A stretch of DNA of 64,000 nt from positions 19,906-83,905 of the forward strand of contig JBAZVI010000002.1 in the NCBI GenBank assembly GCA_041660925.1, given 5' to 3'. The stretch's first letter is position 1. The number at the start of each line of letters is the position of its first letter. Made by a program: the position numbers and the translations under genes. Positions 5,719 to 20,558 of the stretch are shown in pieces. Under the pieces are notes generated by a model. That model worked only from the letters and a program-made list of their open reading frames with translations, had not been told where the DNA came from and did not search any database. Source of the DNA: Elusimicrobiota bacterium (GTDB lineage: Bacteria; Elusimicrobiota; Elusimicrobia; UBA1565).

Positions 5719-6905
5719 CGCGGGTCCGCCAGGCGGAAGAGCTCGGGATGGGCGCTCAGGGTCCCGTCGCGGTCGAGCGCCGCGCGGACGATGTCCGCGG
5801 AGTCGGGGGCCGGGCGCAGGCGGCCGTCGGACCAGGTGTCGGTCGGCACGAACTCCACGCCGAGGACGCCGCGGCGTCCTATGCGGATGCGCGCGAGCGC
5901 GCTCCAGCGCGTGACCGGGGTCGGGGAGACGAAGAGACCGTTGCCGATGCTGTGGAGGATGGGGCGGCCTTTGTAGAGTTCGACCGCCTGAAGGACGTGC
6001 GGGTGGTGTCCGATCACGGCGTCCGCGCCGGCGTCGACCGCGAGGCGGCCGAAGGCGCGCTGGATCTCGTTGGGGTCTTCCGCCTTCTCCGTCCCTCCGT
6101 GGAAGGAGACGAGGAGGACGTCGCAGGAGGATTTCGCGAGCCGGATCCATTCGGGCACGCGCGCGTCGCCCGAATACGCGACGCCGGGGCGCTCGCGCCG
6201 GGCCCAGGCCTCTTCGGGGTGCGTGCTCGTGAAGGCGAGCAGGCCGACGCGCAGTCCGCCGCGCTCGAAGAAGACCGGGCGCACGGCCTCGCCGAGGTCG
6301 CGCCCGGCGCCCACCCGGCGGAAGCCGCCCTCGTCGAGGAGGCGCAGGGTGTCGAGGAAGGCCTCGGGCCCGTAGTCCATGACGTGATTGTTGGCCAGGT
6401 TGAGGACCGTGAATCCCGTCGCGCGCAGGATGGCGATGTTCTCGGGCGGGGCGCGGAAGGTGAAGGTCTTCCCCCGCGTCGGCGCTCCCCGCCGGGAGAC
6501 GGAGGTCTCGAGGTTCCCGAAGAGGACGTCGCCCTCGAGCCAGCGCCGGACGGCCGAGGCCGGGGCCGAGGGGCCGTTCTCCGCAAAGGCCCGGCCCTCC
6601 GGGCCATCGAGGCGGATGTCCCCCATCGCTACAAAAATCATCTCCGGCTCCGGCGTCGGAGCCGGAGATGGGGTGTTGGGAACGGTGACTGTCGGGGTGG
6701 AGATGACGGCGGGCGCCGAGGCGGAGGAGAGGTCGACGGAGGCTGTCGGCTCCGCGGCCTGCGCGGCGGGCGTCAGCCCAAGGAGGATAGAGGTCAGGAG
6801 GATGACACTACTGGAGGTACGCGGCGGTTCGAGCAACGACGCCGGAGGCCGAAAGCCGCGTTTGCAGGCGCAGCGGGGTTTCTGGATGGCTTCTAGAAGG
6901 ACCAT
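5715..6905 (-). CDS. CapA/PgsA-family metallophosphatase-like protein (poly-gamma-glutamate synthesis family), signal peptide
   Basis: Trimmed from ORF 5715..8063 to ATG at 6903-6905 (MVLLEAIQ...); hydrophobic N-terminus, Pro/Thr/Ser linker, then CapA-like core (VLNLANNHVMDYG, GHHPHVLQ). Confidence 0.75.
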   Translation of the reverse strand: MVLLEAIQKPRCACKRGFRPPASLLEPPRTSSSVILLTSILLGLTPAAQAAEPTASVDLSSASAPAVISTPTVTVPNTPSPAPTPEPEMIFVAMGDIRLDGPEGRAFAENGPSAPASAVRRWLEGDVLFGNLETSVSRRGAPTRGKTFTFRAPPENIAILRATGFTVLNLANNHVMDYGPEAFLDTLRLLDEGGFRRVGAGRDLGEAVRPVFFERGGLRVGLLAFTSTHPEEAWARRERPGVAYSGDARVPEWIRLAKSSCDVLLVSFHGGTEKAEDPNEIQRAFGRLAVDAGADAVIGHHPHVLQAVELYKGRPILHSIGNGLFVSPTPVTRWSALARIRIGRRGVLGVEFVPTDTWSDGRLRPAPDSADIVRAALDRDGTLSAHPELFRLADPR

Positions 6906-7657
6906 GTGCGCAGCTCGTCCATCATGGGAAGATAGGTGTGGTCGATGTTCAGCGGGGTCACGGAGACGAAGCCGTCGGCGACCGCGCGTACGTCGGTGCC
7001 CGGTTCCAGGACGCTGGAGACGTACGGGCCGGAGAGCCAGAAATAGCGCTTCCCGTTGGGGTCGCGCCGGACCTCGACCTTCTTCGAGTAGAGGCGGCGT
7101 CCGAGCCGCGCGGTCCGGAAACCCTTCAGCCGCGCCTTCGGCAGGGCGGGGACGTTCACGTTGAGGCAGACGCCCGGAGGCAGGCCGCGCGCGAGGATGC
7201 GGGCCGCGACCTTGCCTGCGGCTTCGGCCGCGGGGATGAAGTCGCGGGAGCGGCGCGAGCGGCCCCGGCTGACGGAGAGGGCGGGCGCGCCGAGGAGGAC
7301 CCCTTCGAGGGCGCCGGCGACCGTGCCCGAGTAGACGACGTCGGAGCCCAGGTTGTAGCCGTCGTTGATCCCGGAGACGACGAGGTCGGCCCGGCCCTTG
7401 AGGACCTCGAGGAGCCCCAGGCGCGCGCAGTCCGCCGGGGTCCCGTCGACGGCGTAGAGGCCGGCGCGCACCTCGCGCATGCGCAGCGGATGGCGCAGGG
7501 TGAGGCAGTGGCTCACCGCGGAGCGTTCCCCCTCCGGGACCACCGCGACGACCTCTCCCAATCCGGAGAGCACCGCGATGAGGGGAAGCAGGCCGGCGCC
7601 CGGGAGCCCGTCGTCGTTGACGACGAGGATCCGAGGCCGTCGGCAGGGACGCTTCAC
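6893..7657 (-). CDS. surE: 5'/3'-nucleotidase SurE
   Basis: 254 aa; RILVVNDDG motif near N-terminus; start is GTG at 7655-7657 overlapping murG stop (GTGA). Confidence 0.85.
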   Translation of the reverse strand: MKRPCRRPRILVVNDDGLPGAGLLPLIAVLSGLGEVVAVVPEGERSAVSHCLTLRHPLRMREVRAGLYAVDGTPADCARLGLLEVLKGRADLVVSGINDGYNLGSDVVYSGTVAGALEGVLLGAPALSVSRGRSRRSRDFIPAAEAAGKVAARILARGLPPGVCLNVNVPALPKARLKGFRTARLGRRLYSKKVEVRRDPNGKRYFWLSGPYVSSVLEPGTDVRAVADGFVSVTPLNIDHTYLPMMDELRTWSF

Positions 7658-8769
7658 GCGTTCCTCCGCGGGTGCGCGCGCACGACCTTTTCGACGAGGT
7701 CGGCGAGGGCCGAAGCGCTCTCCTTCGCGGAGGGCAGCCCGATGCGGGCGTAGGCGTCCGCCATCCGCGCGCGCAGGGCCGCGTCGGAGAAAAGCTCGCG
7801 CAGGCGGTCGGCGAGGGCCTCCGGCGGGAAGGGTTCCTTGAGCATCCGCGCGGCGCCTGCCGTCTCGAGCACGCGGGCGTTGCGCTCCTGGTGCCCGGCG
7901 GCGGCGCTGGGGTAGGGGACGAGGACCGCCGCGCGGCGCGCGGCCGCCAGTTCGGCCAGGGTGGCGGCGCCGGCTCGGCAGAGCACGACGTCGGCGGCCG
8001 CGTACGCGGCCGGCATATCCTCGAGATAGGGAAGGACGCGCGCTTCGGGGAGTCCGGCTTCACGATAGAGGCGCGACGTCTCTTCCGCCTCCGCGCGCCC
8101 GGCGAGGTGGAGGACTTGCGGACGGACGCCCTCGGCGCGCAGGCGCGCGAGCGCCGCGGGGGCGGCCCGGTTCACCGCGCGGGCTCCCTGGGAGCCGCCG
8201 AAGACCAGGAGGGTCGCCCGTTCGGGCTCGAGGGAGAGCCGGCGGCGGGCCTCGGTCGAGTCGGGGAGTTTCGAGAAGCCGGAGCGCACCGGCGTGCCGG
8301 TGAGCGTCGCTCCGGGCGCGGCGCCCGGGTCGCAGAGCGGGAGGCCGAGGGCGAGGGCGTCGGCGAAGGGGAGGATCGCGCGGACCGCCAGGCCGAGCAC
8401 GGCGTTGGATTCATGGAGCACGACCGGGATCCCGCACGAGCGCGCGGCGGCCCCGAGCGGGAAGGTCAGGTAGCCCCCCATCCCGACGGCCGCGGAGGGC
8501 CGCCAGGCGCGGATCAGCGCGCGCGCCGCCAGGACGCTGCGTCCCAGGCGCCAGGGGAACGCGAGGAGCTCGGTGGAGACCTTGCGGGGCAGGCCGCGCA
8601 GGTCGAGCTCCGCGTACGGGAGGTCGTCGGCCTCGAGGCGCGCGGCCGCGGGGTCGTCGCTGCGCAACACGAAGAGGACTTCGTGGCCGCGCTCGCGCAG
8701 ACGGCGTCCGAGCGCGTAGCCGGGGTAGAAATGGCCGCCGGTCCCCCCGCAGGCGATGACGATGCGCAT
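7654..8769 (-). CDS. murG: undecaprenyldiphospho-muramoylpentapeptide beta-N-acetylglucosaminyltransferase
   Basis: 371 aa; N-terminal MRIVIACGGTGGHFYPG signature of MurG. Confidence 0.9.
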   Translation of the reverse strand: MRIVIACGGTGGHFYPGYALGRRLRERGHEVLFVLRSDDPAAARLEADDLPYAELDLRGLPRKVSTELLAFPWRLGRSVLAARALIRAWRPSAAVGMGGYLTFPLGAAARSCGIPVVLHESNAVLGLAVRAILPFADALALGLPLCDPGAAPGATLTGTPVRSGFSKLPDSTEARRRLSLEPERATLLVFGGSQGARAVNRAAPAALARLRAEGVRPQVLHLAGRAEAEETSRLYREAGLPEARVLPYLEDMPAAYAAADVVLCRAGAATLAELAAARRAAVLVPYPSAAAGHQERNARVLETAGAARMLKEPFPPEALADRLRELFSDAALRARMADAYARIGLPSAKESASALADLVEKVVRAHPRRNA

Positions 8770-8819
8770 GGCCCAATCATGCCAGTTTTTGGCCGGGATT
8801 TCCCAGCGGGAAATCCCGC

Positions 8820-9932
8820 TCAGCGCGTCGGGCTCGCGCCCTGGCGGGAGATGTTGAGCAGGATCCCCACCGCACAGAGGCTCACGAGCAGGGAGGAGCC
8901 GCCGTAGGAGAAGAAGGGCAGGGGGATGCCCTTGGTGGGGATGAGGCCGATGGACATCGCGACGTTGAAGAAGGCCTGCAGGACCAGCAGGAGCGTGAGG
9001 CCGGAGGCGAGGAGGCTGCCGAAGAGGTCGGGGGCGTGCCGCGCGGCCCGGAGCCCGCGCATGAGCAGGGAGGCGAAGAGGGCGAGGACCGCGAGGGCGC
9101 CGACGAAGCCGAGCTCTTCACAGACGATGGGGAAGATGAAGTCGGTGTGCGGGGCGGGGAGGTACATGAGCTTGAGCTGGGAGGCGCCGAGGCCCTTCCC
9201 GAACCAGCCCCCCGAGCCGACCGCGATGAGCGACTGCGCGAGCTGGTAGCCCGCGCCCTGGGCCTGCTCGAAGGGGTCGAGGAAGGTGAGCAGGCGCTTG
9301 CGGCGGTAGGGCTTGCGCAGGAGCTCGACGATGACGATCGGGACGGCCGCCAGGATGGCGCCGAGCACGTAGGAGACGCGGGCGCCGCCGATGAACAGGG
9401 TGAGGATGACCGTCGCGAAGATGAGCGCCGGCGTGCCGAGGTCGGGCTCCAGGCCCATGAGGACCAGCGGGACGGCGACCACCCCGAGCGGGACGAGGAG
9501 GCCGATCAGCGGGGAGCCGATGCGGCTCTTCTTGCGGTCGACGAAATCCGCGATGAAGAGGATGACCGAGAGCTTCGCGAACTCGGCCGGCTGGAGCCCG
9601 AAGGGCCCGAGGCGGATCCAGCGGCGCACCCCCGCCACCGGGGGCATGAAGAGCACCGCCGCCAGCAGGAGGACGCTCACGAAGAAGGCCGGCCAGACCC
9701 AGCCGCGCAGGCGGTGGTAGTCGGTGCGGGCGAAGAAGGCCATGAGCATGAGGCCGACGGCGGCGAAGAGGCCCTGGCGCTTGAGGAAGAAGAGGGAGTC
9801 GTGCATCTGCTGGTCGGCGAGGATCGCGCTCGCGGACCACATCATCATGAGACCGAAGCCGAGCAGGAGGAGGGCGGCCAGGAGCAGGCCGTAGTCGGAC
9901 TGCGCGTCGCGGCGGCGCGCGCGGGGGATCAT
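8820..9932 (-). CDS. ftsW: SEDS-family peptidoglycan glycosyltransferase FtsW
   Basis: 370 aa polytopic membrane protein with FtsW/RodA-like motifs (IGSGGWFGKGLG, FIFPIVCEELG, PLPFFSYGGSS); placed between murD and murG. Confidence 0.9.
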   Translation of the reverse strand: MIPRARRRDAQSDYGLLLAALLLLGFGLMMMWSASAILADQQMHDSLFFLKRQGLFAAVGLMLMAFFARTDYHRLRGWVWPAFFVSVLLLAAVLFMPPVAGVRRWIRLGPFGLQPAEFAKLSVILFIADFVDRKKSRIGSPLIGLLVPLGVVAVPLVLMGLEPDLGTPALIFATVILTLFIGGARVSYVLGAILAAVPIVIVELLRKPYRRKRLLTFLDPFEQAQGAGYQLAQSLIAVGSGGWFGKGLGASQLKLMYLPAPHTDFIFPIVCEELGFVGALAVLALFASLLMRGLRAARHAPDLFGSLLASGLTLLLVLQAFFNVAMSIGLIPTKGIPLPFFSYGGSSLLVSLCAVGILLNISRQGASPTR

Positions 9933-11413
9933 CGCGGCTTCGTCGTCTCGACCAGCTCCTTGAAGGCGCGGCCGCGGTGCTCGAAGTCCCTGAACTGGTC
10001 CATCGAGGCGCAGGCGGGAGAGAGCAGGAGCGTCTCGCCCTTCTGCCCGATGCGGAAGGCCACCTCGACGGCCTGCGCGAGGGTCTCGCAGGGGAAGACG
10101 GGCGCGGCGCCGGCGAGGTCCTCTTCGATCTTGGCGGCCGCGCTGCCGATGGTGAGCACCGCCTTCGCGCAGCGGGAGACGAGCGGGCGCAGCGCGGCGA
10201 AGCCGCCGGGCTTGGCCAGCCCGCCGAGGATGAGGAGGATCTTCCCGGCGCGCTCGTCGAGGCTCTTGAGCGCGACGAGGGTGGAGTCGACGTTCGTGGC
10301 CTTGGAGTCGTTGATGCAGTCGAGTCCGTGGTGGCTCCCGCAGTCCTCGATGCGGTGCTCGACGCCGCGGAAGGCGCGGAAGGCCTTCGCGATGGCGGCG
10401 TCGGGGACCTTCTGCGAGAGGGCGAGGAGGGCGGCCGCCATCGCGTTCTCGAGGTTGTGGTCGCCGGGGAGCCGCGGGGGCGCGAGCTTCCGGGGCTTCT
10501 TCTCGCCCGGCAGGCGCGCGAAGATCTTCCCCCCCTCGACCCAGGCCGAGCCCGCCGTCGAGGGCGAGAGCGCGAAGAGGAGGCGGCGGGCCCGGCAGGT
10601 CCGGGCGAGCCCGAAGCAGAGAGGGTCGGCCGAATTGAAGACGCAGACGCCTCCGCGGTCCATGTCGCGGAAGACCCGGGCCTTCGCCGCGACGTACGCG
10701 GCCATGCTGCCGTGGTGGTCGACGTGGTCGGAGGTGATGTTGAGGATCGCCGCCGAGGACGGACGGAACCGGCGGCTGTCCTCGAGCTGGTAGCTCGAGA
10801 CCTCGAGGACGAGGACGTCTCCCTTCCGGACGCGGGCGGCTTCGGCGGAGAGCGGGGTCCCGACGTTCCCGACGAGATGGACGCGGCGGCGCGCGGCTCG
10901 GAAGACGGCCTCGGTCAGGTGCGCCGTCGTGGTCTTCCCGTTGGTCCCCGTCACCGCCACGACGCGGACGTCGGGCGGGCAGAAGGCGAGGGCGACCTCG
11001 AGCTCGCTGAAGACCGGGATGCCCGCCTCTTTCAGCTTCGCGAGCACGCTCGCTCCCGGCAGGAGGCCGGGGCTCTTCACCGCGAAGCCGCAGGTGAGGA
11101 CCTTCTCCATGCGGCCGCCCGCCTCGAGGACGACGCCCTCGGGCAGCTTGTCGGCGAACGGGAGGTCGCGGCGCTGCTTGTCGTCCTGGACGAGGACGCG
11201 GAAGCCCTTGCGGCGCAGCAGGACGGCGGCGTGGAAGCCCGAGCGTCCCAGGCCGAGCACGAGGGCGCGCTTGCCCTTCCAGGCGGCGGGGAGGAACCGG
11301 TCCTGGGGCGGCGCCGGCCTGGGCCGGCGGACGGGCGCCTTTCTCGCCGCCTTGCGCGGAGGCGCCTTCTTCCCGCGCGCCGCAGACTTTTTCGCCGCCT
11401 TCCGCTTCTTCAA
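9929..11413 (-). CDS. murD: UDP-N-acetylmuramoylalanine--D-glutamate ligase
   Basis: 494 aa; Mur ligase P-loop VTGTNGKTTT; about 45 aa Lys/Ala/Pro/Arg-rich N-terminal extension before the Rossmann segment ALVLGLGRSG, so true start uncertain. Confidence 0.85.
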   Translation of the reverse strand: MKKRKAAKKSAARGKKAPPRKAARKAPVRRPRPAPPQDRFLPAAWKGKRALVLGLGRSGFHAAVLLRRKGFRVLVQDDKQRRDLPFADKLPEGVVLEAGGRMEKVLTCGFAVKSPGLLPGASVLAKLKEAGIPVFSELEVALAFCPPDVRVVAVTGTNGKTTTAHLTEAVFRAARRRVHLVGNVGTPLSAEAARVRKGDVLVLEVSSYQLEDSRRFRPSSAAILNITSDHVDHHGSMAAYVAAKARVFRDMDRGGVCVFNSADPLCFGLARTCRARRLLFALSPSTAGSAWVEGGKIFARLPGEKKPRKLAPPRLPGDHNLENAMAAALLALSQKVPDAAIAKAFRAFRGVEHRIEDCGSHHGLDCINDSKATNVDSTLVALKSLDERAGKILLILGGLAKPGGFAALRPLVSRCAKAVLTIGSAAAKIEEDLAGAAPVFPCETLAQAVEVAFRIGQKGETLLLSPACASMDQFRDFEHRGRAFKELVETTKPR

Positions 11414-11414
11414 C

Positions 11415-12500
11415 TCAGCGCACCTTCAGCGAGGCCAGGGCGGCCAGCATGAGCACGATGCAGGTGATCCAGAAGCGGACGGTGACCTTGGACTCCGCGA
11501 CCCCGCCGAGCTCGAAGTGGTGGTGGATGGGGGCCATGCGGAAGACGCGCTTGCCGCCCCGGAGCTTGTAGGAGCCCATCTGGAGGATGACGGAGAGGGT
11601 CTCGACGACGAAGACCCCGCCGACGACCGGGAGGATGAGCTCCTGCTTGACGCAGAGCGCGATGGTGCCGATGACGCCTCCGAGGAAGAGCGAGGAGGTG
11701 TCGCCCATGAAGACCTCGGCCGGGTAGGCGTTGAACCAGAGGAAGCCGAGGCAGGCGCCGATGAGGGCGGCGCAGAAGACGGCGATCTCTCCGGCGTTCT
11801 CGACGTGGATGATCCGCAGGTAGTCGGCGAACTTGGCGTTGCCGGCCGTGTAGGCGAACACGCCGTAGGCGATGGCGCAGAAGATGATCGAGCCGGCCGC
11901 CAGCCCGTCGAGTCCGTCGGTGAGGTTCACCGCGTTGGAGGAGCCGACGATGATCAGTACGCCGAGCACGAAGTAGAGCGAGCCCAGCGCGACGTAGAGT
12001 CCCTTGGTGTAGGGGACGAGCAGGGAGTCGACGTAGTCTCCGTTGGGCGGGCGCACCGCGAGCCAGGCGACGACGACGACCGCCGCGGCGATCTGGACGG
12101 CGAACTTGAGCCGCGAGGGCGCCCCGCGCGGGTCCTTGCGCACGAGCTTGAGGTAGTCGTCCCAGAAGCCGACCGCCCCCAGCGCGGCGGTGACGAAGAG
12201 GAGTATCCAGGTGAAGCGGACGTCGGGCCGCATCCAGAGCAGGGTCGAGAGGGTCAGCGCGAGGAGGATGAGCAGGCCTCCCATCGTCGGCGTGCCGTGC
12301 TTGGCGAGGTGGCTCTTGGGACCGTCGGTGCGCTGCTGCTGGCCGATCTTCTTCTCGCGCAGCAGGGCGATGAGGGAGGGCCCGAAGAGCAGGGAGATCC
12401 CGAGGGCGGTCAGCATGGCGCCGCCGCTGCGGAAGGTGATGTAGCGGAAGACGTTGAGCGGGCCCCAGGACTCACGCAGCAGATGGAGATAATAGAGCAT
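11415..12500 (-). CDS. mraY: phospho-N-acetylmuramoyl-pentapeptide transferase
   Basis: 361 aa polytopic membrane protein with MraY motifs (GTPTMGG, NAVNLTDGLDGLA, HHHFE). Confidence 0.9.
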   Translation of the reverse strand: MLYYLHLLRESWGPLNVFRYITFRSGGAMLTALGISLLFGPSLIALLREKKIGQQQRTDGPKSHLAKHGTPTMGGLLILLALTLSTLLWMRPDVRFTWILLFVTAALGAVGFWDDYLKLVRKDPRGAPSRLKFAVQIAAAVVVVAWLAVRPPNGDYVDSLLVPYTKGLYVALGSLYFVLGVLIIVGSSNAVNLTDGLDGLAAGSIIFCAIAYGVFAYTAGNAKFADYLRIIHVENAGEIAVFCAALIGACLGFLWFNAYPAEVFMGDTSSLFLGGVIGTIALCVKQELILPVVGGVFVVETLSVILQMGSYKLRGGKRVFRMAPIHHHFELGGVAESKVTVRFWITCIVLMLAALASLKVR

Positions 12501-13885
12501 CAGAGCGCCTCCGCGAGGGCCTCCAGGCGCATGGCGCGCGAGGCCTTGAAGTAGACGCTGACGGCGGGTGCGAGCAGGCCGCGCAGGGCGTCTCGCAGCC
12601 CGTCGGCGTCGGGAGCGTGGAGGATCTCGAAGCGGGCGCCCTTCTCCCGCAGCCCCTCGGCGGTCTCGGCGCTCAGGGGCCCGGCGAGGAGGACGGCGGA
12701 GAGCGGGAGGCCGGCGAGCCAGCGGCCCAGTTCGCGGTGGAAGCGCGGCGACTCCGGGCCCAGCTCGCGCATGTCGCCGAGCACGAGGACCCGCCGGCCG
12801 GGCGGGGCGGTCTCCAGGAAGGTCTCCACCCCGGCCCGCATCGAGTCCGGGTTGGCGTTGTAGGCGTCGACGAGCAGCCAGGCTCCGCTCGCATGCGCGC
12901 GCTGCGCGAAGCGCAGCGGCGCCGGGCGGAAATCCGCGAGGCCGGCGGCGATCTCCGCGGCGGAGAAGCCGAGCGCGTGGGCGGCGGCGGCCGCCGCCGC
13001 CGCGTCGAGGCGGTGGGGACGCCCGATCGGCCCCCCCGGACGGGCGCGGGCCTCTCCGTCGGGCAGGCGCAGGGCGATCTCCCCGGCCTCGGCCGGGAGC
13101 GCGCGCACGCGCGCCTCCGCGCCGAAGCCGAAGGTGACCGCGCGCGCGCCGAGGCCCGGCAGCAGGCGGCAGAGATAGGGGTCGTCGGCGTTGAGCACCG
13201 CGGGGGCGTCGGCCGGCAGCGCTTCGAAGAGCTCCGCCTTGGTCTTGAACACGCGCTCGAGACTGCCGAAGTACTCGAGGTGGGCCGCGCCGATGTTCGT
13301 GAGGACGCCGAGCGTCGGTCGGGCCGCCCGGCAGAGGTACGCGATGTCCCCCGGGCGGGAGGCCCCCATCTCGAAGACGGCGAAGGCGTGCTCGGCGCGC
13401 AGGCCCAGCACGGTCATGGGCAGGCCGACCTCGTTGTTGAAGTTGAGCTCGGTCGCGCAGACCTTCCCGCGGCGGGCGAGGACGGCGCGGAGCATCTCCT
13501 TGGTCGTGGTCTTGCCGTTGGTGCCGGTGAGCCCCACGACGGGGAGGGTGAAGCGGGAGCGGTGCTCCGCCGCGGCGTCGGAGAGGGCCTTCAGCGTGTC
13601 GGGGACCTCGAGCACGCAGGGCGGCTGGAGGGCGGGCAGCGGCGCGCCGGCGCGCACGATCCAGCCGCCGGCGGCGCGAGCGGCGTGCTCGTTGAGGAAG
13701 GCGTGGGCGTCGAAGCGCTCCCCCTTGAGCGCGAGGAAGGCCTCTCCGGGGCGCAGGAGCCGGCTGTCGGTGCAGAGGGAGCGCACGGGGGCGTCGGGGC
13801 GGCCGCGCAGGAGCCGTCCGCCGGCGGCGCGCGCGAAGTCTCCCCAGGTCAGCGTCAGTTCCATCCTCTCCTCTGCCGTCAGCAT
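12500..13885 (-). CDS. murF: UDP-N-acetylmuramoyl-tripeptide--D-alanyl-D-alanine ligase
   Basis: 461 aa; Mur ligase P-loop GLTGTNGKTTTKEM; position between murE and mraY. Confidence 0.9.
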   Translation of the reverse strand: MLTAEERMELTLTWGDFARAAGGRLLRGRPDAPVRSLCTDSRLLRPGEAFLALKGERFDAHAFLNEHAARAAGGWIVRAGAPLPALQPPCVLEVPDTLKALSDAAAEHRSRFTLPVVGLTGTNGKTTTKEMLRAVLARRGKVCATELNFNNEVGLPMTVLGLRAEHAFAVFEMGASRPGDIAYLCRAARPTLGVLTNIGAAHLEYFGSLERVFKTKAELFEALPADAPAVLNADDPYLCRLLPGLGARAVTFGFGAEARVRALPAEAGEIALRLPDGEARARPGGPIGRPHRLDAAAAAAAAHALGFSAAEIAAGLADFRPAPLRFAQRAHASGAWLLVDAYNANPDSMRAGVETFLETAPPGRRVLVLGDMRELGPESPRFHRELGRWLAGLPLSAVLLAGPLSAETAEGLREKGARFEILHAPDADGLRDALRGLLAPAVSVYFKASRAMRLEALAEAL

Positions 13886-15396
13886 CGGCCCAGGTCCTTC
13901 AGGGCCTCGCGGGCGACCTCGCGGTCGTCGAAGCGCACGGTGCGCTCGCGCAGGATCTGATGGTCCTCGTGCCCCTTCCCGGCGATGAGGACGAGGTCCT
14001 CGGGCTGGGCCAGGCGCACGGCCTCGCGGATCGCTTCCCGTCGGTCGGGGACGATTCTATAATTTTGCCGGCCGGCGCGCTTGAGCCCCTCCTCGACCGC
14101 GGCGAGGATCGCGAGCGGGTCCTCCCCGCGAGGGTTGTCGCTCGTCGCGAGGACGACGTCGCTGCCCGCGGCCGCGGCCTCTCCCATCGGCGCGCGCTTC
14201 CCGGGGTCGCGGTCTCCGCCGCAGCCGAAGACGGTCACGATGCGGCGGTGCGGCAGCGCGCGCACGGTCTCGAGCGCCGAGGCGAGGGCCTCGGCGGTAT
14301 GGGCGAAATCGACGAGCACGGCGAACTCCTGGCCCGCCTCGACGGGCTCCAGCCGGCCCGGGACGCATTCCAGGGCCGCGAGCCCTTCCAGGACGCCCTG
14401 TTCCGGGAGGCCCAGCGCCCACGCCGCCGCCGCCGCCGCCAGGGCGTTGGAGACGTTGTGGCGCCCGAGCAGGCGCAGGGTGACCGCCGCCTCCGCGCCC
14501 GTGCGCCGGAGGCGGAAGGTCGTGCCGCGGCGGCCGAGCACCACGCCCTCGGCGCGGAGGTCGGCGGCCTCGTGGAAGCCGTAGCTGACGAGGCGGGCTC
14601 CCTCGGCCGCGCGGGCGAAGCGCGCGAAGGCCGGGTCGTCGCGGTTGACCACGGCCGCGCGCTCGCGCTTCGAGGAGGAGGCCCGGTCGAGGAGCTCGAA
14701 GAGCCGGAGCTTGGCCTCGAGGTAGGCCTCGTGCGTCTTGTGGAAGTCGAGGTGGTCGCGCTGGAGGTTGGTGAGGACCGCGGCGTCGAACTCGACGTCC
14801 TCGACGCGCTTCGTCGAGAGCGCGTGAGAGGAGACCTCCATCGCGACGTGCGTGGCTCCGCCCTCGCGCATGCGCGCGAGCAGGCGCAGGAGGTCGAGGC
14901 TGTAGGGCGTGGTGTTCGCCGCCTTCTCGAGGACCCGGTGGCGCAGGCGGTGGGCGATGGTCCCCACGAGGCCGGGGACCTTCCCGCAGCGGCTGAACAC
15001 GGATTCGAGGAACCACGCCGTCGTCGTCTTCCCGTTGGTCCCGGTGATCCCGACGACGGAGAGCCCCGCGCTCGGGTCGCCGAAGAAGTTGTTCGCCCCG
15101 CGGCTCATGGCCTCGAACGCGTCGGGGACCTGCACCCAGGCGGCGCCCCCTCCTCCCGGACGCGCGAGCGTCATCGGCGGCGGGGGCGGCGCGAGCTCGC
15201 TGACCACGGCCGCCGCGCCGCGCTCGACGGCCTCGCGGGCATGCCGGTTCCCGTCGGTGCGGGCGCCGGGCAGCGCGAAGAAGACGGTGCCGGGCAGGAC
15301 GCGCCGGGAGTCGTGGGCGACGTCGGAGGCCTCGCGGTCTCCCGCGGCGCCGAGCGGCGGGTGCTGGACGCCGCGCAGGACCTCCGCGAGCCTCAT
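13879..15396 (-). CDS. murE: UDP-N-acetylmuramoyl-L-alanyl-D-glutamate--2,6-diaminopimelate ligase
   Basis: 505 aa; GITGTNGKTTT P-loop and MurE-like C-terminus; ATGA overlap with ftsI. Confidence 0.9.
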   Translation of the reverse strand: MRLAEVLRGVQHPPLGAAGDREASDVAHDSRRVLPGTVFFALPGARTDGNRHAREAVERGAAAVVSELAPPPPPMTLARPGGGGAAWVQVPDAFEAMSRGANNFFGDPSAGLSVVGITGTNGKTTTAWFLESVFSRCGKVPGLVGTIAHRLRHRVLEKAANTTPYSLDLLRLLARMREGGATHVAMEVSSHALSTKRVEDVEFDAAVLTNLQRDHLDFHKTHEAYLEAKLRLFELLDRASSSKRERAAVVNRDDPAFARFARAAEGARLVSYGFHEAADLRAEGVVLGRRGTTFRLRRTGAEAAVTLRLLGRHNVSNALAAAAAAWALGLPEQGVLEGLAALECVPGRLEPVEAGQEFAVLVDFAHTAEALASALETVRALPHRRIVTVFGCGGDRDPGKRAPMGEAAAAGSDVVLATSDNPRGEDPLAILAAVEEGLKRAGRQNYRIVPDRREAIREAVRLAQPEDLVLIAGKGHEDHQILRERTVRFDDREVAREALKDLGRC

Positions 15397-17168
15397 GCGC
15401 CGCTCGGGCGGCCGAGGGCGGGCGAGGCGGCCTTCCCGCCGGGGGCCTGGACGCGGCCGGGCGCCAGGGGGCGCGCGGGGAGCGCGGGGCGCTGGGGCGC
15501 GGTGCGCCAGGCGTTGGGTCCGCTCGGGATGCGCAGCGGCAGCGACACGTCGGGCGGGATCCCGCGATGGGCGAGGACCTCGCGCGCGACGCGCGAGAAG
15601 ACGGGGCCCGCGACCTCGGAGCCGTAGTAGCCGACGCGCGGGCTGTCGATGACGACGAGGACGGTGAGCTTCGGGTCCCGGGCCGGCAGGTAGCCGATGA
15701 AGGACGAGACGTAGTCGTTGGGGGAGTAGCGGCCGGTCGCGGGGTCGATCTTCTGGGCGGTCCCGGTCTTGCCCGCGGTCCGGAAGCCGGGGACCTGCGC
15801 CGACTGTCCGGTCCCGCGCAGGACGACGCCCTCGAGCATGTCGCGCACGGCCGCGACCGCCTCCGGCGACGCCACCTGACGCAGGCGCACGGGCCCGGGA
15901 GCCTCGCGCTCTCCCAGCGCGAGCAGGAGGCGGGGCGCGAGGAGCTCCCCGTCGTTGGCGATGGCGGAATAGGCGCCGGCGAGCTGGAGCGGCGTCACCG
16001 CGACGCCCTGGCCGAAGCCGGCGTTGGCCAGACGCACCGGGGTGAACTCCTTGGGCTCGGGCAGAAGCCCCGCGCTCTCGCCGGGCAGCGGCAGGCCGGT
16101 CTTGTAGCCGAATCCGAAGAGGCGGCAGAAGCGGTGGAAGCTCCCGGCGCCGACGCGCAGGGTGACCTTGGCCGTCCCGATGTTCGACGAGCGCTCCAGG
16201 ACCTGGGAGAGGGTGATGCGGGTCTCGGGTTCGTGGTCCTTGATGGTGACGCCTTTGGCGACCTCCCAGCGGCCTCCCTCGCAGTCGACGATGTCGTCGG
16301 GGCGGAAGAGACCCTTGTCGAGCGCGGCGGCGAGCGCGACGAGCTTGAAGGTCGAGCCGGGCTCGTAGACGTCCTGCACCGCGTGGTTCTTGAGCGCGTC
16401 CGGGGGCCAGGAGGCGAGGGCGAGCAGGTCGCCTGTGCGCGGATCCTGCACCACGACGGTGCCGCGCTTGGCGCGGCGCGCGACGACCGCTTCGCGGACG
16501 GCCGACTCCGCGAAGTGCTGGACGCTGCGGTCGATGCTCAGGCGCAGGTCCGGCGCTCGCGCGGTGTCGGGCGGTCCCTCCTGGACGATCGCGTTGCCCG
16601 CGCGGTCCTTCGTCGTCCGGACGCGGTAGGAGCGCCCGCTGAGCTCGCGGTCGTAGGCGAGCTCGAGGCCGGAGAGTCCCTTCTCGTCGAGGTCCACGGA
16701 GCCGATGACCGCGCGGAGCATCTCCCCGTTGGGATAGACGCGCTGCTCGTCGGCGACGAAGCCGACCCAGGGCAGGCGGAAGGCGCGCAGCCGGGCGGCC
16801 TCCTCCGGCAGCATCTTGCGCTTGAGCCAGAGGAAGCGCCGGCCGGGACGCAGCTTCCCGAGCAGGGGGCCGGCGTCGACGCCGGCCGCCTTGGCCGCCG
16901 CGCGCAGGGCGCGCGCGGGCTCCTCGACGCCGGTGAAGTCGCAGAAGCTGGAGGAGACGGGGACGGACTCCGCGAGGACGCGGCCTTCCCGGTCGAGGAT
17001 GCGGCCGCGGGGGACGAGGATCAGCTCGCTGCCGAGCGTCTCGTCGGCGGCTTTCAGCTCGAGCTGCTGATGGCGGACGACCTGCAGCCAGGCCAGGCGC
17101 AGGGCGAGCGGAAGGAGTGCGAGGATGCAGAGGGTTCGGACGACGGCCAGGCGGCTGCGAGTTTCCAA
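15393..17168 (-). CDS. ftsI: peptidoglycan D,D-transpeptidase FtsI (class B PBP)
   Basis: 591 aa; N-terminal membrane anchor, transpeptidase motifs STFK and KTGTA. Confidence 0.9.
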   Translation of the reverse strand: METRSRLAVVRTLCILALLPLALRLAWLQVVRHQQLELKAADETLGSELILVPRGRILDREGRVLAESVPVSSSFCDFTGVEEPARALRAAAKAAGVDAGPLLGKLRPGRRFLWLKRKMLPEEAARLRAFRLPWVGFVADEQRVYPNGEMLRAVIGSVDLDEKGLSGLELAYDRELSGRSYRVRTTKDRAGNAIVQEGPPDTARAPDLRLSIDRSVQHFAESAVREAVVARRAKRGTVVVQDPRTGDLLALASWPPDALKNHAVQDVYEPGSTFKLVALAAALDKGLFRPDDIVDCEGGRWEVAKGVTIKDHEPETRITLSQVLERSSNIGTAKVTLRVGAGSFHRFCRLFGFGYKTGLPLPGESAGLLPEPKEFTPVRLANAGFGQGVAVTPLQLAGAYSAIANDGELLAPRLLLALGEREAPGPVRLRQVASPEAVAAVRDMLEGVVLRGTGQSAQVPGFRTAGKTGTAQKIDPATGRYSPNDYVSSFIGYLPARDPKLTVLVVIDSPRVGYYGSEVAGPVFSRVAREVLAHRGIPPDVSLPLRIPSGPNAWRTAPQRPALPARPLAPGRVQAPGGKAASPALGRPSGA

Positions 17169-17175
17169 CCGCGCC

Positions 17176-17487
17176 TCAATGGATCAGGAAGCTGAGAAGA
17201 CCCTGCCCTTCTCCCCCCCGGGCGAGCGCGCGTCCGAGGAAAATCTGACTCTCCGGCGTCGGCGGCGTCATGCGCAGGCGGGTCTCCGCCTCGCGGGCGA
17301 TCCGCTCCGGGGCCCGCAGGCGCGCGAGCTGCATGCGCAGATGGACGACCGTCTGCGACTGCAGGCGCAGCTCCTTGCGGGCCCGGCCCACCTCATAGCC
17401 CACCCGCACGGCCTGTACCTGCTCCCAGAGGAACAGGAAGGCCAGTGCGGTGAGGGCTGCGAGGACGACGACGCGGATGCGGTTCAT
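17176..17487 (-). CDS. ftsL: cell division protein FtsL-like (small bitopic protein)
   Basis: 103 aa; single N-terminal TM helix then coiled-coil-like region; canonical position immediately upstream of ftsI. Confidence 0.6.
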   Translation of the reverse strand: MNRIRVVVLAALTALAFLFLWEQVQAVRVGYEVGRARKELRLQSQTVVHLRMQLARLRAPERIAREAETRLRMTPPTPESQIFLGRALARGGEGQGLLSFLIH

Positions 17488-17535: not shown

Positions 17536-17706
17536 TCAGTGCCTCTGGGGCCGTCCCTTGAGGAAGACGCGCTGCCAGATATAGCCGGCGCCGGAGGCCG
17601 GGCCGACGGGCATCAGCCGGATGATCTGTTCGCGGGCCGGGAGCATGCGCGCCGCGCCCTCGCCCCCCTCGCTTCCGCCGGTCCCGCCGAAGAAGAACTC
17701 TTTCAT
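17536..17706 (-). CDS. hypothetical small Gly-rich protein (56 aa)
   Basis: Tail of ORF 17536..18177; ATG at 17704-17706 preceded by GGGGGGAG Shine-Dalgarno-like run at optimal spacing; lies between rsmH and ftsL. Confidence 0.3.
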   Translation of the reverse strand: MKEFFFGGTGGSEGGEGAARMLPAREQIIRLMPVGPASGAGYIWQRVFLKGRPQRH

Positions 17707-17720
17707 GATCTCCCCCCTGT

Positions 17721-18623
17721 TCAGAGTTTCTCGACGACGCGGAGCTTCGCGCTCCGCGCCCGCGGATTTCGAGCGATCTCTTCCGGCTGGGGTGAGACCG
17801 CGCCTTCCGTCACCCATCGGCAGCTGCCCGAGGCCACGTACGACTTGAAAACGTTCTTCGCGATGCGGTCTTCCAGGGAGTGGAAGGAGATCGCGGCGAC
17901 CCGTCCGCCGGAGCGCAGCATCCCCAGGACGTCCTCGAGGCCGCGGGTCAGGTTCTCGAGCTCGCCGTTGACCGCGATGCGCAGCGCCTGGAAGGTCCGG
18001 GTCGCCGGGTGGATGCGTCCGGTGCGGGGCAGGCGGGACTCGAGAAGGACGGCGAGGTCGCCGGTCGTCTCGAAGGGCTTCGCCGCGCGCGCGTCGACGA
18101 CCCAGCGCGCGATGCGCGCGGCTTCCCGCTCCTCCCCGTATTCCCTCAGAAGCAGCTCGATCTGCTCGGCCGGCCACTCGTTGACGATGCGGGCGGCGGT
18201 GAGCGGATTCGACGGATCGAGCCTCATGTCGAGCGGTCCTTCCCGCTGGATCGCGAAGCCGCGCTCCGCCTTGTCGAACTGGAGGGAGGAAACCCCGAGA
18301 TCGAACAAGGCACCGGCCAGCGGGAAGAACCCCTCGTTCTGGAGGATGCGGACGAGGTCGCGGAAATTGCCCTGGACGAGGCGGCAGCGCCCCGCGTAGG
18401 AGCGCAGGCGCTCCTCGGCGAGCGCGAGGGCCTCGGGGTCGAGGTCGATGCCGAGCAGGCGGCCCTGCGGAAGAAGGCCGCGCAGCACCGCCTCCGCGTG
18501 GCCCCCGAGCCCGAGGGTCGCGTCGAGGTAGAGGCCTTCGCGGTCGGTGACGAGCGCGGAGACCGTCTCTTCGAGGAGGACCGGTGCGTGAGTGTATTCT
18601 TCGTTCATGGTCGCGGTGCTCAT
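17721..18623 (-). CDS. rsmH: 16S rRNA (cytosine1402-N4)-methyltransferase RsmH/MraW
   Basis: Trimmed from ORF 17721..18944 to ATG at 18621-18623 (MSTATMNEEYTHAPVLLEE...); RsmH-like core with HxPVLL start and SAM-binding region; alternative ATG at 18606-18608. Confidence 0.85.
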   Translation of the reverse strand: MSTATMNEEYTHAPVLLEETVSALVTDREGLYLDATLGLGGHAEAVLRGLLPQGRLLGIDLDPEALALAEERLRSYAGRCRLVQGNFRDLVRILQNEGFFPLAGALFDLGVSSLQFDKAERGFAIQREGPLDMRLDPSNPLTAARIVNEWPAEQIELLLREYGEEREAARIARWVVDARAAKPFETTGDLAVLLESRLPRTGRIHPATRTFQALRIAVNGELENLTRGLEDVLGMLRSGGRVAAISFHSLEDRIAKNVFKSYVASGSCRWVTEGAVSPQPEEIARNPRARSAKLRVVEKL

Positions 18624-19075
18624 CAGAGATCGAGGTCCTTGGCGAGCTCCGTGAAGGACGGCGCGGCGTGCTTGCGGGAGTATTCCTGCCAGCGCGCGCG
18701 GTCCCAGATCTCGGCCTTGTTCCCCGCCCCGGCCACCACCACGTCCTTCTTGAGCCCTGCGAAATCCTTGAGGTTCTGCGGGACGAGCACGCGGCCCTGC
18801 TCGTCCACCGGCGCCTCGACCGCGCTGCTGAAGATGAAGCGCTTCGCGGCGCGGGCCTTCTTCTTGTCCTTGATGTCCTGCGTATGCGTCTTCGCGTCGT
18901 CCAGGAACGCCTCCCATTGGGACGGGAGGAACAGCCAGAGGCATTCGTCCTGACCGATCGCCAGCACGAAGTGCGAGCCCTTCTCCGCGATGAGCGCTTC
19001 GCGGTAGCGCGGCGGTACGACGACCCGGTTCTTCGGGTCGAGAGAGTAGTCGTACTGTCCGATGGTGACGGTCAT
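18623..19075 (-). CDS. mraZ: transcriptional regulator MraZ
   Basis: Trimmed from GTG-initiated ORF 18623..19117 to ATG at 19073-19075 (MTVTIGQYDYSLDPKNRVVVPPRYR...), giving a typical 150-aa two-repeat MraZ; the longer ORF would run through the operator repeats. Confidence 0.8.
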   Translation of the reverse strand: MTVTIGQYDYSLDPKNRVVVPPRYREALIAEKGSHFVLAIGQDECLWLFLPSQWEAFLDDAKTHTQDIKDKKKARAAKRFIFSSAVEAPVDEQGRVLVPQNLKDFAGLKKDVVVAGAGNKAEIWDRARWQEYSRKHAAPSFTELAKDLDL

Positions 19076-19100
19076 TTTCTTTTTTCTGCGGGGTCCCAGT

Positions 19101-19140
19101 TCCCTACTTTTCCCCACTCTTTGCCACTCTTCCCCACTGG
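19101..19140 (-). promoter_or_regulatory. candidate MraZ operator: four 10-bp-phased direct repeats with GTGGG-like cores
   Basis: Minus-strand reading CCAGTGGGGA AGAGTGGCAA AGAGTGGGGA AAAGTAGGGA, 26-65 nt upstream of the proposed mraZ ATG. Confidence 0.6.
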
Positions 19141-19315
19141 GAGCTTGAGTATAGGTAGTGAGTCGCGATTTGTCAAGACCTAGTTGAAAAAGAGCGCGCG
19201 GTGCCGACGTACTATCGCGCGCGTGAGGAACACGCGCGCGTAGTGGATGCGCGCGGTGCGCGCGCGAACCTTATAGGGGAGTGTCGGGTTCCGTTGGGAG
19301 TTGGGTTCCTTAACT

Positions 19316-19415
19316 CCCTCCCCTTCGGGGGAGGGAAGGGTGGGGGAGGACGGATGCCATCGCTAGGTACAACAGCAGGTTCCCCCTCCTCCTGCCTCCT
19401 CCCGCGGGAGGAGGA
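19316..19415. repeat. two GC-rich hairpins of the CCCTCCC-loop-GGGAGGG family
   Basis: 19316-19335 ccctcccc-ttcg-ggggaggg (8-bp stem, UUCG-type loop) and 19395-19415 cctcctccc-gcg-gggaggagg, between an upstream minus-strand gene and the mraZ leader. Confidence 0.6.
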
Positions 19416-19430
19416 GTTGAGGAAGGTCGT

Positions 19431-20558
19431 CTACATCCTGTGTTGCTGAAGATCGTAGCGCCAGGCGTACTCGAGCGCCTTGACGCGGTTGAAGGGCATG
19501 CCGTACGCGCGGTAGAGCGCGTCGTGCACGGCGACGCCGTCCTTGAGGAGGGCCGAGAAGCGGAAGAACGAGGACTTGTACTGCGCGCGGATGAGGAAGC
19601 GCACGACGCTGTAGGCCTGCGTGTACCAGAGGCGCACGCTCGCGTCGTCGGCGCCCGCCGTGTTCTCGACCGAAAGGAGCTCGGTGAGCGCGTAGCCGCC
19701 GCCGCGGCGGAGGACCTCCATGTTCTCCTTGAGCCAGTTCGGCGCCGCGAGTCCGCGCTCGGTCTGCACGAGCGTCGCCATGCCCTCGCTGAGCCAGAGC
19801 GGGTTGGAGCGTCCCCCCAGGAAGAAGCTGTCGAAGTAGATGTGGCAGAGCTCGTGGGCGAGGATGCCGATGCTCTCCTCGCTCTCGTAGAGGTAGATCT
19901 TGCGGCCCTTCACCGAACTCGCGCCGCCCGACCAGGACGGCCGGCCGGTGACGCGGCGGTAGGAGTCCTGGCTTCGGAAGAGGTAGATGGAGACGCGCTC
20001 GTCGCGCGCCCACGGGGAGAACGCCGCGAGGTCGAGCATGAGGTTGGCGTGGAGGTTCTCGATGGCGTCCACATAGGCGGCCGGCGCCTCGGTCCCTTCG
20101 GCGTAGATGTTGAAGTGGCGCGTCTGCGTCCGAAGGAAGCCCTTGGGCGTCGCGGGCTCCGCGGCCGTGGGCGCGGGCCGCACGGGCCGTTCGGGGACGG
20201 GGCGCGGAGCGCTCTCGTCCACCGGCGCCGGCCCGATCGGCTGGGGCGTCGTCGGCAGCGCGCGCAGGTGCGGGAGGGCGGCGAGCGCGGCCTCTTCGCG
20301 CGCGCGGTCCACCTGCTTCGGCAAAGTCGAGGAGGGCGGCGCGGGCTCCTGCAGCAGGTCCTCGGCGGGGCGCGGCGGGAAGAGCTGGGCATGGGAGACG
20401 GGCTCGGCCGGCGGCGGCGCCGTGGCGATGCGGCTGGTGACCCAGCGCATCTGCGGCAGCTCCCCGGTCTCGTCCTCCAGGAACTGATAGATCATGATCC
20501 CCCACAGGCAGAGGACCATGAGCCAGAGGTACAGCCGCAGCTTGATCAGGATGTCCAT
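19431..20558 (-). CDS. hypothetical membrane-anchored protein with HExxH motif (putative zinc metallopeptidase-like)
   Basis: 375 aa; N-terminal TM helix, Pro-rich linker, then domain containing ILAHELCHIYF; family assignment from memory only. Confidence 0.65.
   Translation of the reverse strand: MDILIKLRLYLWLMVLCLWGIMIYQFLEDETGELPQMRWVTSRIATAPPPAEPVSHAQLFPPRPAEDLLQEPAPPSSTLPKQVDRAREEAALAALPHLRALPTTPQPIGPAPVDESAPRPVPERPVRPAPTAAEPATPKGFLRTQTRHFNIYAEGTEAPAAYVDAIENLHANLMLDLAAFSPWARDERVSIYLFRSQDSYRRVTGRPSWSGGASSVKGRKIYLYESEESIGILAHELCHIYFDSFFLGGRSNPLWLSEGMATLVQTERGLAAPNWLKENMEVLRRGGGYALTELLSVENTAGADDASVRLWYTQAYSVVRFLIRAQYKSSFFRFSALLKDGVAVHDALYRAYGMPFNRVKALEYAWRYDLQQHRM

What the first reader, a model, noticed from the sequence alone, without database searches (positions are those of the whole stretch)
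19101..19140. Four 10-bp-phased GTGGG-core direct repeats upstream of mraZ indicate the operator and argue for a shorter mraZ
On the coding strand the sequence reads CCAGTGGGGA-AGAGTGGCAA-AGAGTGGGGA-AAAGTAGGGA. MraZ is known to autoregulate the dcw operon by binding direct repeats with this kind of core and phasing. The longest ORF (GTG at 19117) would place these repeats inside the coding region, so the ATG at 19075 is the more plausible start.
Basis: partly seen in the sequence, partly recalled or inferred. Interest (0 to 1): 0.45.

Follow-up and report, generated by a model that had tools for sequence, protein, structure and literature searches.

The report
MraZ operator boxes at dcw promoter
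The four 10-bp-spaced GTGG repeats are the ordinary, well-known binding boxes of the cell-division regulator MraZ, placed just after a near-perfect promoter in front of its own gene in an Elusimicrobiota genome, and the shorter 150-residue MraZ starting at the ATG is the right gene model.

Summary

**Layout on the minus strand**
- A near-consensus promoter: TTGACA, 17 nt, TATACT (19176-19148).
- Ten bases later, four units in 10-bp register: ccaGTGGGGA, agaGTGGCAA, agaGTGGGGA, aaaGTAGGGA (19140-19101).
- The mraZ ATG at 19075, at the head of mraZ-rsmH-ftsL-ftsI-murE-murF-mraY-murD-ftsW-murG.

**Statistics.** The three-box pattern occurs once in 64 kb and in none of 100 shuffles.

**Conservation.** 70 Elusimicrobiota mraZ loci were examined.
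- 69 carry TTGACA-17/18-TAnnnT followed by 10-bp-phased GTG(G/T) boxes.
- Among close relatives only the -35, the -10 and the box cores are invariant.
- E. coli Pmra has the same layout with three boxes.

**Protein.** It keeps the DNA-contacting residues defined in the M. genitalium MraZ-DNA structures (D13/K15/R17, D91/R95).

**Start codon.** The GTG at 19117 is the core of box 3.
- The 14-residue extension is not conserved.
- Relatives have in-frame stops there.
- Public annotation already uses the 150-aa form.

**Caveats.** Box 4 is degenerate (GTAG, confirmed in four independent assemblies). The transcription start and MraZ binding are inferred, not measured.

This is an ordinary new instance of a known operator, of low interest.

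The parts
19171..19176 (-). -35 hexamer TTGACA of the mraZ/dcw promoter
   Evidence: One search finds TTGACA-17-TATACT, 11 of 12 matches, against 0.1 expected in shuffles. TTGACA is invariant in alignment A3 and present in 69 of 70 Elusimicrobiota loci.
19148..19153 (-). -10 hexamer TATACT
   Evidence: The exact TTGACA-N17-TATACT is found in 61 of 70 related loci and is invariant in A3.
19131..19140 (-). MraZ box 1 unit ccaGTGGGGA (core GTGG 19137-19134). It starts 11 nt after the -10, so it lies at or just after the predicted transcription start.
   Evidence: The GTGG core is invariant among close relatives. The position is typical of the phylum: the first GTG lies mostly 8-11 nt after the -10.
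19121..19130 (-). MraZ box 2 unit agaGTGGCAA (core GTGG 19127-19124)
   Evidence: AGTG is invariant in A3. The position-frequency matrix shows G/T/G/G at +10 to +13 in 60-67 of 69 loci.
19111..19120 (-). MraZ box 3 unit agaGTGGGGA (core GTGG 19117-19114). Its GTG is the spurious start codon of the 164-aa ORF.
   Evidence: Relatives have GTGG, GTGT or ATGG in this slot.
19101..19110 (-). MraZ box 4 unit aaaGTAGGGA (degenerate core GTAG 19107-19104)
   Evidence: All five close relatives have GTGG in this slot. GTAG is reproduced in four independent assemblies.
19076..19100 (-). Rest of the 5' leader (actgggaccccgcagaaaaaagaaa). It is non-coding, A-rich and has no clear Shine-Dalgarno sequence.
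   Evidence: Its length and sequence are not conserved in relatives.
18623..19075 (-). mraZ coding sequence, 150 aa, starting at ATG 19075
   Evidence: TIGR00242 above cutoff; P0001 is 100% identical and 150 aa; N-terminus conserved from M1; aligns to the solved MraZ structures 1n0e and 9qlr.
17721..18623 (-). rsmH (mraW). Its start overlaps the mraZ stop (TGATG).
   Evidence: TIGR00006, 296.8 bits. The overlap is read.
7654..17487 (-). The rest of the dcw cluster served by this promoter: ftsL 17176-17487, ftsI-like PBP 15393-17168, murE 13879-15396, murF 12500-13885, mraY 11415-12500, murD 9929-11413, ftsW 8820-9932, murG 7654-8769.
   Evidence: That these genes are co-transcribed from this promoter is an inference.

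Best explanation
**What it is.** The four 10-bp-phased units at 19140-19101 on the minus strand are the MraZ-binding boxes (operator) of the dcw/mra promoter of an uncultured Elusimicrobiota bacterium.

**How it most likely works.**
1. RNA polymerase uses the near-consensus promoter TTGACA-17-TATACT (19176-19148) and starts transcription about 19141-19137.
2. The box cores then lie at roughly +5 to +38 of the transcript region, one per helical turn, all on one face of the DNA.
3. MraZ, the first product of the operon, binds as an oligomer. One subunit's beta-sheet 'cradle' (K15, R17, R95, held in place by D13 and D91) enters the major groove at each GTG(G/T) core.
4. The bound oligomer occludes the start site and the early transcribed region. 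This represses mraZ-rsmH-ftsL-ftsI-mur... in a negative feedback loop.
5. Box 4 (GTAG) is probably a weakened site.

**Gene model.** MraZ is translated from ATG 19075 (150 aa). The longer ORF from GTG 19117 arises only because a box core reads as a start codon in frame.

**Shown here:** the repeats, their phasing, the promoter match, conservation of the layout, the identity of the protein and its contact residues, and the start codon.

**Inferred:** the transcription start, occupancy by MraZ, the sign of regulation (repression), and the extent of the transcript.
For: **Sequence and statistics.**

**Protein identity and dcw context.**

**DNA-contact residues.**
- D13, K15, R17, D91 and R95 are invariant in 18-22 homologues.
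- They align to D11, K13, R15, D82 and R86 of M. genitalium MraZ.
- Those residues contact the TG(T/G) core and are required for binding and repression (PMC12957436).

**Box definition.**
- Published boxes are GTG(G/T) separated by six nucleotides with A-rich 5' flanks. There are three in most bacteria and four in M. genitalium, where the transcription start lies inside box 1 and binding and repression fall stepwise as boxes are mutated.
- In B. subtilis, repression requires the repeats.

**Phylogenetic footprint.**
- Among six relatives with 71-81% protein identity, only the -35, the -10 and the box cores are invariant, while the flanks are unalignable.
- Of the 70 Elusimicrobiota loci examined, 69 have TTGACA-17/18-TAnnnT.
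- Those 69 loci average 3.0 in-phase GTG[GT] cores at period 10, against 1.1-1.7 at periods 7-13. Three or more occur in 0.05% of shuffles.
- 39 of 69 loci have four or more in-phase boxes.

**Wider comparison.**
- E. coli MG1655 has TTGACA-18-TAAACT, 7 nt, then GTGGGAaattGTGGGGcaaaGTGGGA.
- Agathobaculum, Methylomirabilota and a gammaproteobacterial MAG show the same motif.

**Start codon.**
Against: - No experimental data exist for this organism. The transcription start is only predicted from the -10, and the bases 6-8 nt downstream of the -10 are pyrimidines.
- Box 4 departs from the consensus at the central G that an arginine contacts in the M. genitalium structure, so four-box occupancy is uncertain.
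- MraZ was reported as an activator in M. gallisepticum (cited in PMC12957436), so the sign of regulation cannot be taken from homology alone.
- There is no recognisable Shine-Dalgarno sequence before ATG 19075.
Confidence: 0.85

Rival explanations
1. The repeats, or at least boxes 3 and 4, are coding sequence. MraZ would start at GTG 19117 and carry a 14-residue N-terminal extension (MGKSRELGPRRKKK), and the periodicity would be a by-product of a repetitive peptide.
For: The ORF is open from GTG 19117, and open for 65 codons upstream of the ATG. Some gene callers produced extended homologues: P0017, P0047, P0096 and P0114 at 161-164 aa.
Against: - The extensions do not align with one another. 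They are simply translations of the box DNA in whichever frame is open.
- Most of the 69 loci tabulated have an in-frame stop within 12 codons upstream and no alternative start, including the closest relative.
- The spacing from the -10 to the ATG differs by amounts that are not multiples of three.
- The boxes keep their register relative to the promoter, not to the reading frame.
- The TIGR00242 and PDB alignments begin at residues 4-5 of the short form.
- The identical 150-aa protein is the one on public record.
Confidence: 0.02
2. The boxes do bind MraZ, but MraZ activates rather than represses this promoter, or it acts mainly elsewhere and occupancy here has little effect.
For: MraZ was reported as an activator on overexpression in M. 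gallisepticum (cited in PMC12957436). The promoter is already near consensus, so the direction of control cannot be read from promoter strength alone.
Against: - The boxes lie downstream of the -10, over the predicted start site and early transcribed region. This is a repressor position.
- The same layout is repressive in M. genitalium and B. subtilis. MraZ is annotated as a repressor in E. coli.
- A promoter matching the consensus at 11 of 12 positions has little room for activation.
Confidence: 0.08
3. The repeats act at the RNA or DNA-structure level in the 5' leader rather than as a protein operator. Examples would be repeated GGA motifs for a CsrA-like protein, or a G-quadruplex formed by the G runs (GGGG, GGGG, GGG, GGG) on the non-template strand.
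For: The units contain GGGGA or GGGA and lie within the predicted 5' untranslated region. Four runs of three or more G exist between 19134 and 19094.
Against: - Across the phylum the conserved element is GTG(G/T). In most lineages it is followed by T or A (GTGGTG, GTGTTT, ATGTTG), with no GGA and no G runs.
- No Rfam family matches the leader.
- Strict 10-bp phasing relative to the -10 is a property of DNA helical-face recognition.
Confidence: 0.03
4. The repeats are a chance or recently expanded tandem repeat with no function.
For: The array is short and imperfect (79% matches).
Against: - It occurs in 0 of 100 shuffles.
- It is conserved in position and core across 69 loci of a phylum and in other phyla.
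- Spacers diverge while cores persist.
Confidence: 0.01

Closest known systems
M. genitalium MraZ four-box operator (cryo-EM structures 9qlr, 9qlg, 9sx6; PMC12957436)
   Same: - Four direct boxes with a GTG(G/T) core, six-nucleotide spacers and A-rich 5' flanks (AAAGTGT-N3 there, agaGTGG/aaaGTAG here).
- The boxes begin at the transcription start, just after the -10.
- The contact residues K, R and R and their supporting aspartates are conserved.
   Different: - The cores here are mostly GTGG followed by G-rich bases, in a high-GC genome.
- Box 4 is GTAG.
- The operon is a full dcw cluster rather than the four-gene Mycoplasma remnant.
- Nothing has been measured for this organism.
E. coli Pmra / mraZ promoter with three GTGGG repeats
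   Same: A TTGACA -35, then a -10, then boxes starting 8-11 nt later with a 10-bp period and a GTGGG(A/G) core. The mraZ ATG lies a few tens of bases beyond the last box (L088). MraZ is annotated there as a repressor.
   Different: E. coli has three boxes and a TAAACT -10 with an 18-nt spacer. The window has four slots, three of them perfect. I could not retrieve the original E. coli paper, so the comparison is by sequence only.
B. subtilis MraZ-binding repeats (MBRs)
   Same: Three GTGG[A/T]G motifs with 4-nt spacers, which gives the same 10-bp period, lie in the mra promoter and are required for repression.
   Different: That operator has three repeats, and the repeats overlap the -35/-10 region according to the authors' construct design. 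Here the repeats follow the -10.

Membership tests
MraZ protein family (PF02381 / TIGR00242) | Two tandem MraZ (SpoVT/AbrB-like) domains that score above the curated cutoffs | tested here: met
   Pfam MraZ scores 109.4 bits (cutoff 23) in two stretches. TIGR00242 scores 103.9 bits against a cutoff of 98.35 for the 150-aa form. phmmer matches the solved MraZ structures 1n0e, 9qlr, 9qlg and 9sx6 at E about 1e-15.
MraZ protein family (PF02381 / TIGR00242) | Two DXXXR motifs plus the lysine that contacts the box (M. genitalium D11/K13/R15 and D82/R86) | tested here: met
   D13-P-K15-N-R17 and D91-E-Q-G-R95 are present. They are invariant in alignments A1 and A2 and align to the M. genitalium residues. 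Their roles are described in PMC12957436.
MraZ protein family (PF02381 / TIGR00242) | First gene of the dcw cluster, immediately followed by rsmH (mraW) | tested here: met
   rsmH overlaps the mraZ stop. It is followed by ftsL, ftsI, murE, murF, mraY, murD, ftsW and murG.
MraZ protein family (PF02381 / TIGR00242) | Ring oligomer (octamer or dodecamer) that opens on DNA | not tested
   No structure prediction or multimer modelling was run. The C-terminal region aligns to the M. pneumoniae and M. genitalium proteins.
MraZ-binding boxes (MBR operator) | Three or more direct repeats with a GTG(G/T) core | tested here: met
   There are three perfect GTGG cores and one GTAG.
MraZ-binding boxes (MBR operator) | Six-nucleotide spacers, giving a 10-bp period with one box per helical turn | tested here: met
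   TRF gives period 10 with no indels. Period 10 is uniquely enriched across the 69 loci.
MraZ-binding boxes (MBR operator) | Location in the promoter of mraZ itself, at or next to the transcription start | tested here: inconclusive
   The boxes begin 11 nt after a -10 that belongs to an 11-of-12 consensus promoter, and this spacing is conserved. The transcription start is predicted, not mapped.
MraZ-binding boxes (MBR operator) | Conservation of the boxes upstream of mraZ in related genomes | tested here: met
   See alignment A3 and the 69 of 70 Elusimicrobiota loci. The boxes are also present in Agathobaculum, a Methylomirabilota MAG, a gammaproteobacterial MAG and E. coli.
MraZ-binding boxes (MBR operator) | Direct binding by MraZ and box-dependent repression | not testable with these tools
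   This needs EMSA or footprinting and a reporter assay.

The most novel reading that the evidence does not exclude
Four- and five-box MraZ operators are the rule in the phylum Elusimicrobiota rather than a Mycoplasma peculiarity.

- 39 of 69 loci have four or more in-phase boxes.
- A further clade has a 2+2 arrangement with an empty slot between the pairs.
- All are tied to an almost invariant TTGACA-17-TATACT promoter.
- In some lineages the last box coincides with the start codon (L011, L012, L022) or with the ribosome-binding region (the clade of L005 and L008-L010).

If these boxes are all occupied, the four-subunit open-ring binding mode seen in M. genitalium would be widespread. The operator would then be under joint transcriptional and translational sequence constraint.
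Probability: 0.4. Interest if true: 0.3.

Novelty: new member of a known kind. Interest (0 to 1): 0.15.

Why it matters
**Practical value.** This confirms a gene model and a regulatory site in an uncultured phylum. It also explains an annotation artefact that probably recurs: box DNA (GTGGGGAAAAGTGG...) reads as open frame with GTG starts, so gene callers sometimes give MraZ a false N-terminal extension. Four homologues show this.

**Biological value.** The E. coli, Bacillus and Mycoplasma MraZ operator architecture, a strong promoter followed by phased GTG(G/T) boxes over the start site, extends essentially unchanged to Elusimicrobiota, with four to five boxes. This supports the idea that the mechanism is ancestral and general. 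It opens no new question.

Tried and rejected
- **Fifth box.** I looked for one in the window. The next unit (actGGGAccc, 19100-19091) is out of register, and relatives have nothing conserved there. Rejected.
- **Other MraZ targets in the window.** GTGG-N6-GTGG gives only the two overlapping matches inside the array, against 1.6 expected by chance. No other candidate target was found.
- **RNA families.** An Rfam scan of 18900-19500 at E up to 1 gives nothing in the leader. It gives only sub-threshold hairpin-type hits at 19302-19426 in the upstream intergenic region.
- **E. coli literature.** I tried to read the original E. coli MraZ paper by DOI and it is not held. I therefore compared the E. 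coli sequence directly and make no claim about the mapped E. coli start site.
- **Ribosome-binding site.** I considered using it to choose the start codon. Neither candidate start has a clear Shine-Dalgarno sequence, and relatives show no consistent one, so this argument was dropped in favour of homology and in-frame stops.
- **Plus-strand ORF.** The ORF at 18584-19183 (199 aa) is antisense to mraZ and was treated as a spurious high-GC ORF.
- **Locus without the architecture.** L024 has no promoter or boxes within 200 nt upstream. It was left unexplained as a single exception.

Full report
**Observation.**
On the minus strand the region reads as follows:

`...ctaggtcTTGACAaatcgcgactcactaccTATACTcaagctcccaGTGGggaagaGTGGcaaagaGTGGggaaaaGTAGggaactgggaccccgcagaaaaaagaaaATGaccgtc...`

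- Tandem Repeats Finder reports a period-10 array of 3.9 copies with no indels.
- GTGG-N6-GTGG-N6-GTGG is unique in the 64-kb window and absent from 100 dinucleotide-preserving shuffles.
- The four-box pattern with one mismatch is also unique, against 0.01 expected.
- The fourth core is GTAG, not GTGG. The identical sequence is present in four independent assemblies carrying the same MraZ, so this is a real variant and not an error.
- A putative fifth unit is out of register.

**Context.**
- Immediately upstream is the only sigma-70-type promoter match in 18900-19500: TTGACA, 17 nt, TATACT at 19176-19148. It matches the consensus at 11 of 12 positions, against 0.1 matches expected.
- Box 1 begins 11 nt after the -10. 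The box cores therefore lie at about +5 to +38 if transcription starts the usual ~7 nt after the -10. This is an inference, because the start is not mapped.
- The ORF downstream is MraZ (Pfam PF02381 in two stretches; TIGR00242 above its cutoff).
- It is followed by rsmH (overlapping TGATG), ftsL, an ftsI-type PBP, murE, murF, mraY, murD, ftsW and murG, all on the minus strand.
- The organism is an uncultured Elusimicrobiota bacterium. P0001, 100% identical, is annotated by NCBI as MraZ of an Elusimicrobiota MAG.

**Comparative test of the operator.**
I fetched 80 loci encoding MraZ relatives from species-representative genomes and four closer relatives by exact look-up.

- Among the six closest sequences (71-81% protein identity), the intergenic DNA is unalignable except for three islands that are invariant or nearly so: CTTGACA, TATACTC and the four box cores.
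- Across 70 Elusimicrobiota loci, 61 have exactly TTGACA-N17-TATACT and 69 have TTGACA-17/18-TAnnnT.
- The first GTG lies mostly 8-11 nt after the -10.
- A position-frequency matrix anchored on that GTG shows information peaks at 0-3, 10-13, 20-23, 30-33 and 40-43.
- In-phase GTG[GT] cores average 3.0 per locus at period 10, against 1.1-1.7 at periods 7-13. Three or more occur in 0.05% of shuffled controls.
- 39 of 69 loci have four or more in-phase boxes. A distinct clade has two boxes, an empty slot, then two boxes.
- The same motif follows the promoter in Agathobaculum (Firmicutes), a Methylomirabilota MAG and a gammaproteobacterial MAG.
- In E. coli MG1655 the layout is TTGACA, 18 nt, TAAACT, 7 nt, then GTGGGAaattGTGGGGcaaaGTGGGA.

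**Comparison with what is known.**
- PMC12957436 defines MraZ boxes as GTG(G/T) cores separated by six nucleotides. There are usually three, but four in M. genitalium, whose consensus is AAAGTGT-N3 repeated.
- That paper maps the transcription start inside box 1. It shows a stepwise loss of binding and repression as boxes are mutated.
- It also shows that each subunit inserts K13, R15 and R86, positioned by D11 and D82, into the major groove at TG(T/G).
- In B. subtilis, three GTGG[A/T]G motifs with 4-nt spacers are required for repression, as are both DXXXR arginines.
- The window's protein has D13, K15, R17, D91 and R95. They are invariant in its homologues and aligned to the M. genitalium residues.
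- Every sequence-level defining feature of both the protein family and its operator is therefore met. Binding, repression and oligomer state are untested.

**Start codon.**
- The longest ORF starts at GTG 19117. That GTG is the core of box 3.
- Public records hold the identical 150-aa form.
- Homologues are mostly 147-154 aa and align from M1.
- The few longer database entries (P0017, P0047, P0096, P0114) have unrelated extensions such as VGKSGDQWGKV. These are simply translated box DNA.
- The codon aligned with M1 is ATG in 64 of the 69 loci tabulated and GTG in one more. Most have an in-frame stop within 12 codons upstream and no alternative start.
- The closest relative has a stop six codons upstream.
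- Leader lengths differ by amounts that are not multiples of three.
- The ATG at 19075 is therefore the start. It lacks an obvious Shine-Dalgarno sequence, which is also true of its relatives.

**Mechanism (inferred).**
The promoter is strong and near consensus. Its start site and first ~40 transcribed base pairs carry four phased boxes on one DNA face. An MraZ oligomer engages one box per subunit, blocks polymerase binding or escape, and so autoregulates the dcw operon negatively. Box 4 (GTAG) changes the central G that is contacted in the structure and is probably weaker.

**Rivals.**
- A coding extension is refuted by the comparison above.
- Activation rather than repression has a precedent in M. 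gallisepticum but is disfavoured by the box position.
- RNA-level GGA motifs or a G-quadruplex are not conserved in relatives, where the cores are followed by T or A, and there is no Rfam match.
- Chance is refuted.

**Verdict.**
The finding is correct and ordinary. It is a clean new instance of the known MraZ operator, and the gene model already matches public annotation.

The only mildly new point concerns box number. Four to five boxes, not three, are typical across Elusimicrobiota, whereas the 2026 structural paper treats four boxes as a Mycoplasma feature.

Noticed in passing
window 17536-17706 (- strand): A 56-aa ORF (MKEFFFGG...LPAREQIIRLMP...AGYIWQRVFLKGRPQRH) lies between rsmH and ftsL. 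ORFs of 48-59 aa are called at the same position in four relatives and align with it: L, R, I, Y, W and R are invariant and the closest relative is 63% identical. There is no NCBIfam match. It may be a lineage-specific small dcw-cluster protein.
   Followed up: partly
window 19177-19435 (- strand): The 259-nt spacer between the upstream Peptidase_MA_2 gene and the mraZ promoter is unusually structured (MFE -121 kcal/mol, z = -6.3). It holds several GC-rich hairpins:
- the perfect palindrome CCTCCTCCCGCGGGAGGAGG (19414-19395);
- CCCTTCCCTCCCCCGAAGGGGAGGGAG (about 19340-19314);
- a GCGCGC-rich stem followed by CTCTTTTT just before the -35, which looks like the upstream gene's terminator.

Only sub-threshold Rfam hits fall here (whalefall-1, 26.4 bits against a gathering score of 37).
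   Followed up: partly
L011, L012, L022 (just upstream of the match start); L005, L008-L010 and relatives: In some Elusimicrobiota lineages the last MraZ box coincides with translation signals. In L011, L012 and L022 the box's GTG appears to be the MraZ start codon (GTGGGGATC..., giving (M)GISV...). In the 2+2 clade the last box GGTGGGGAG ends 2-3 nt before the ATG and looks like the Shine-Dalgarno sequence.
   Followed up: no
P0017, P0047, P0096, P0114: Database MraZ entries of 161-164 aa carry N-terminal extensions (for example VGKSGDQWGKV and MGEENKEWKKVG) that are translations of the box array. This is probably a recurrent gene-calling artefact, because GTGG boxes supply in-frame GTG starts.
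   Followed up: partly
window 6893-8769 (- strand): After murG (7654-8769) the next gene is surE (6893-7657), and a sensor histidine kinase lies further on (3766-6150). murC, ftsQ, ftsA and ftsZ do not follow murG directly here, so the dcw cluster appears truncated or split in this genome.
   Followed up: no
L024 (upstream of 534): This is the one Elusimicrobiota-like mraZ locus out of 70 with neither the TTGACA-17-TATACT promoter nor boxes within 200 nt upstream. The cause is unknown and could be a rearrangement, an assembly join or a second copy.
   Followed up: no
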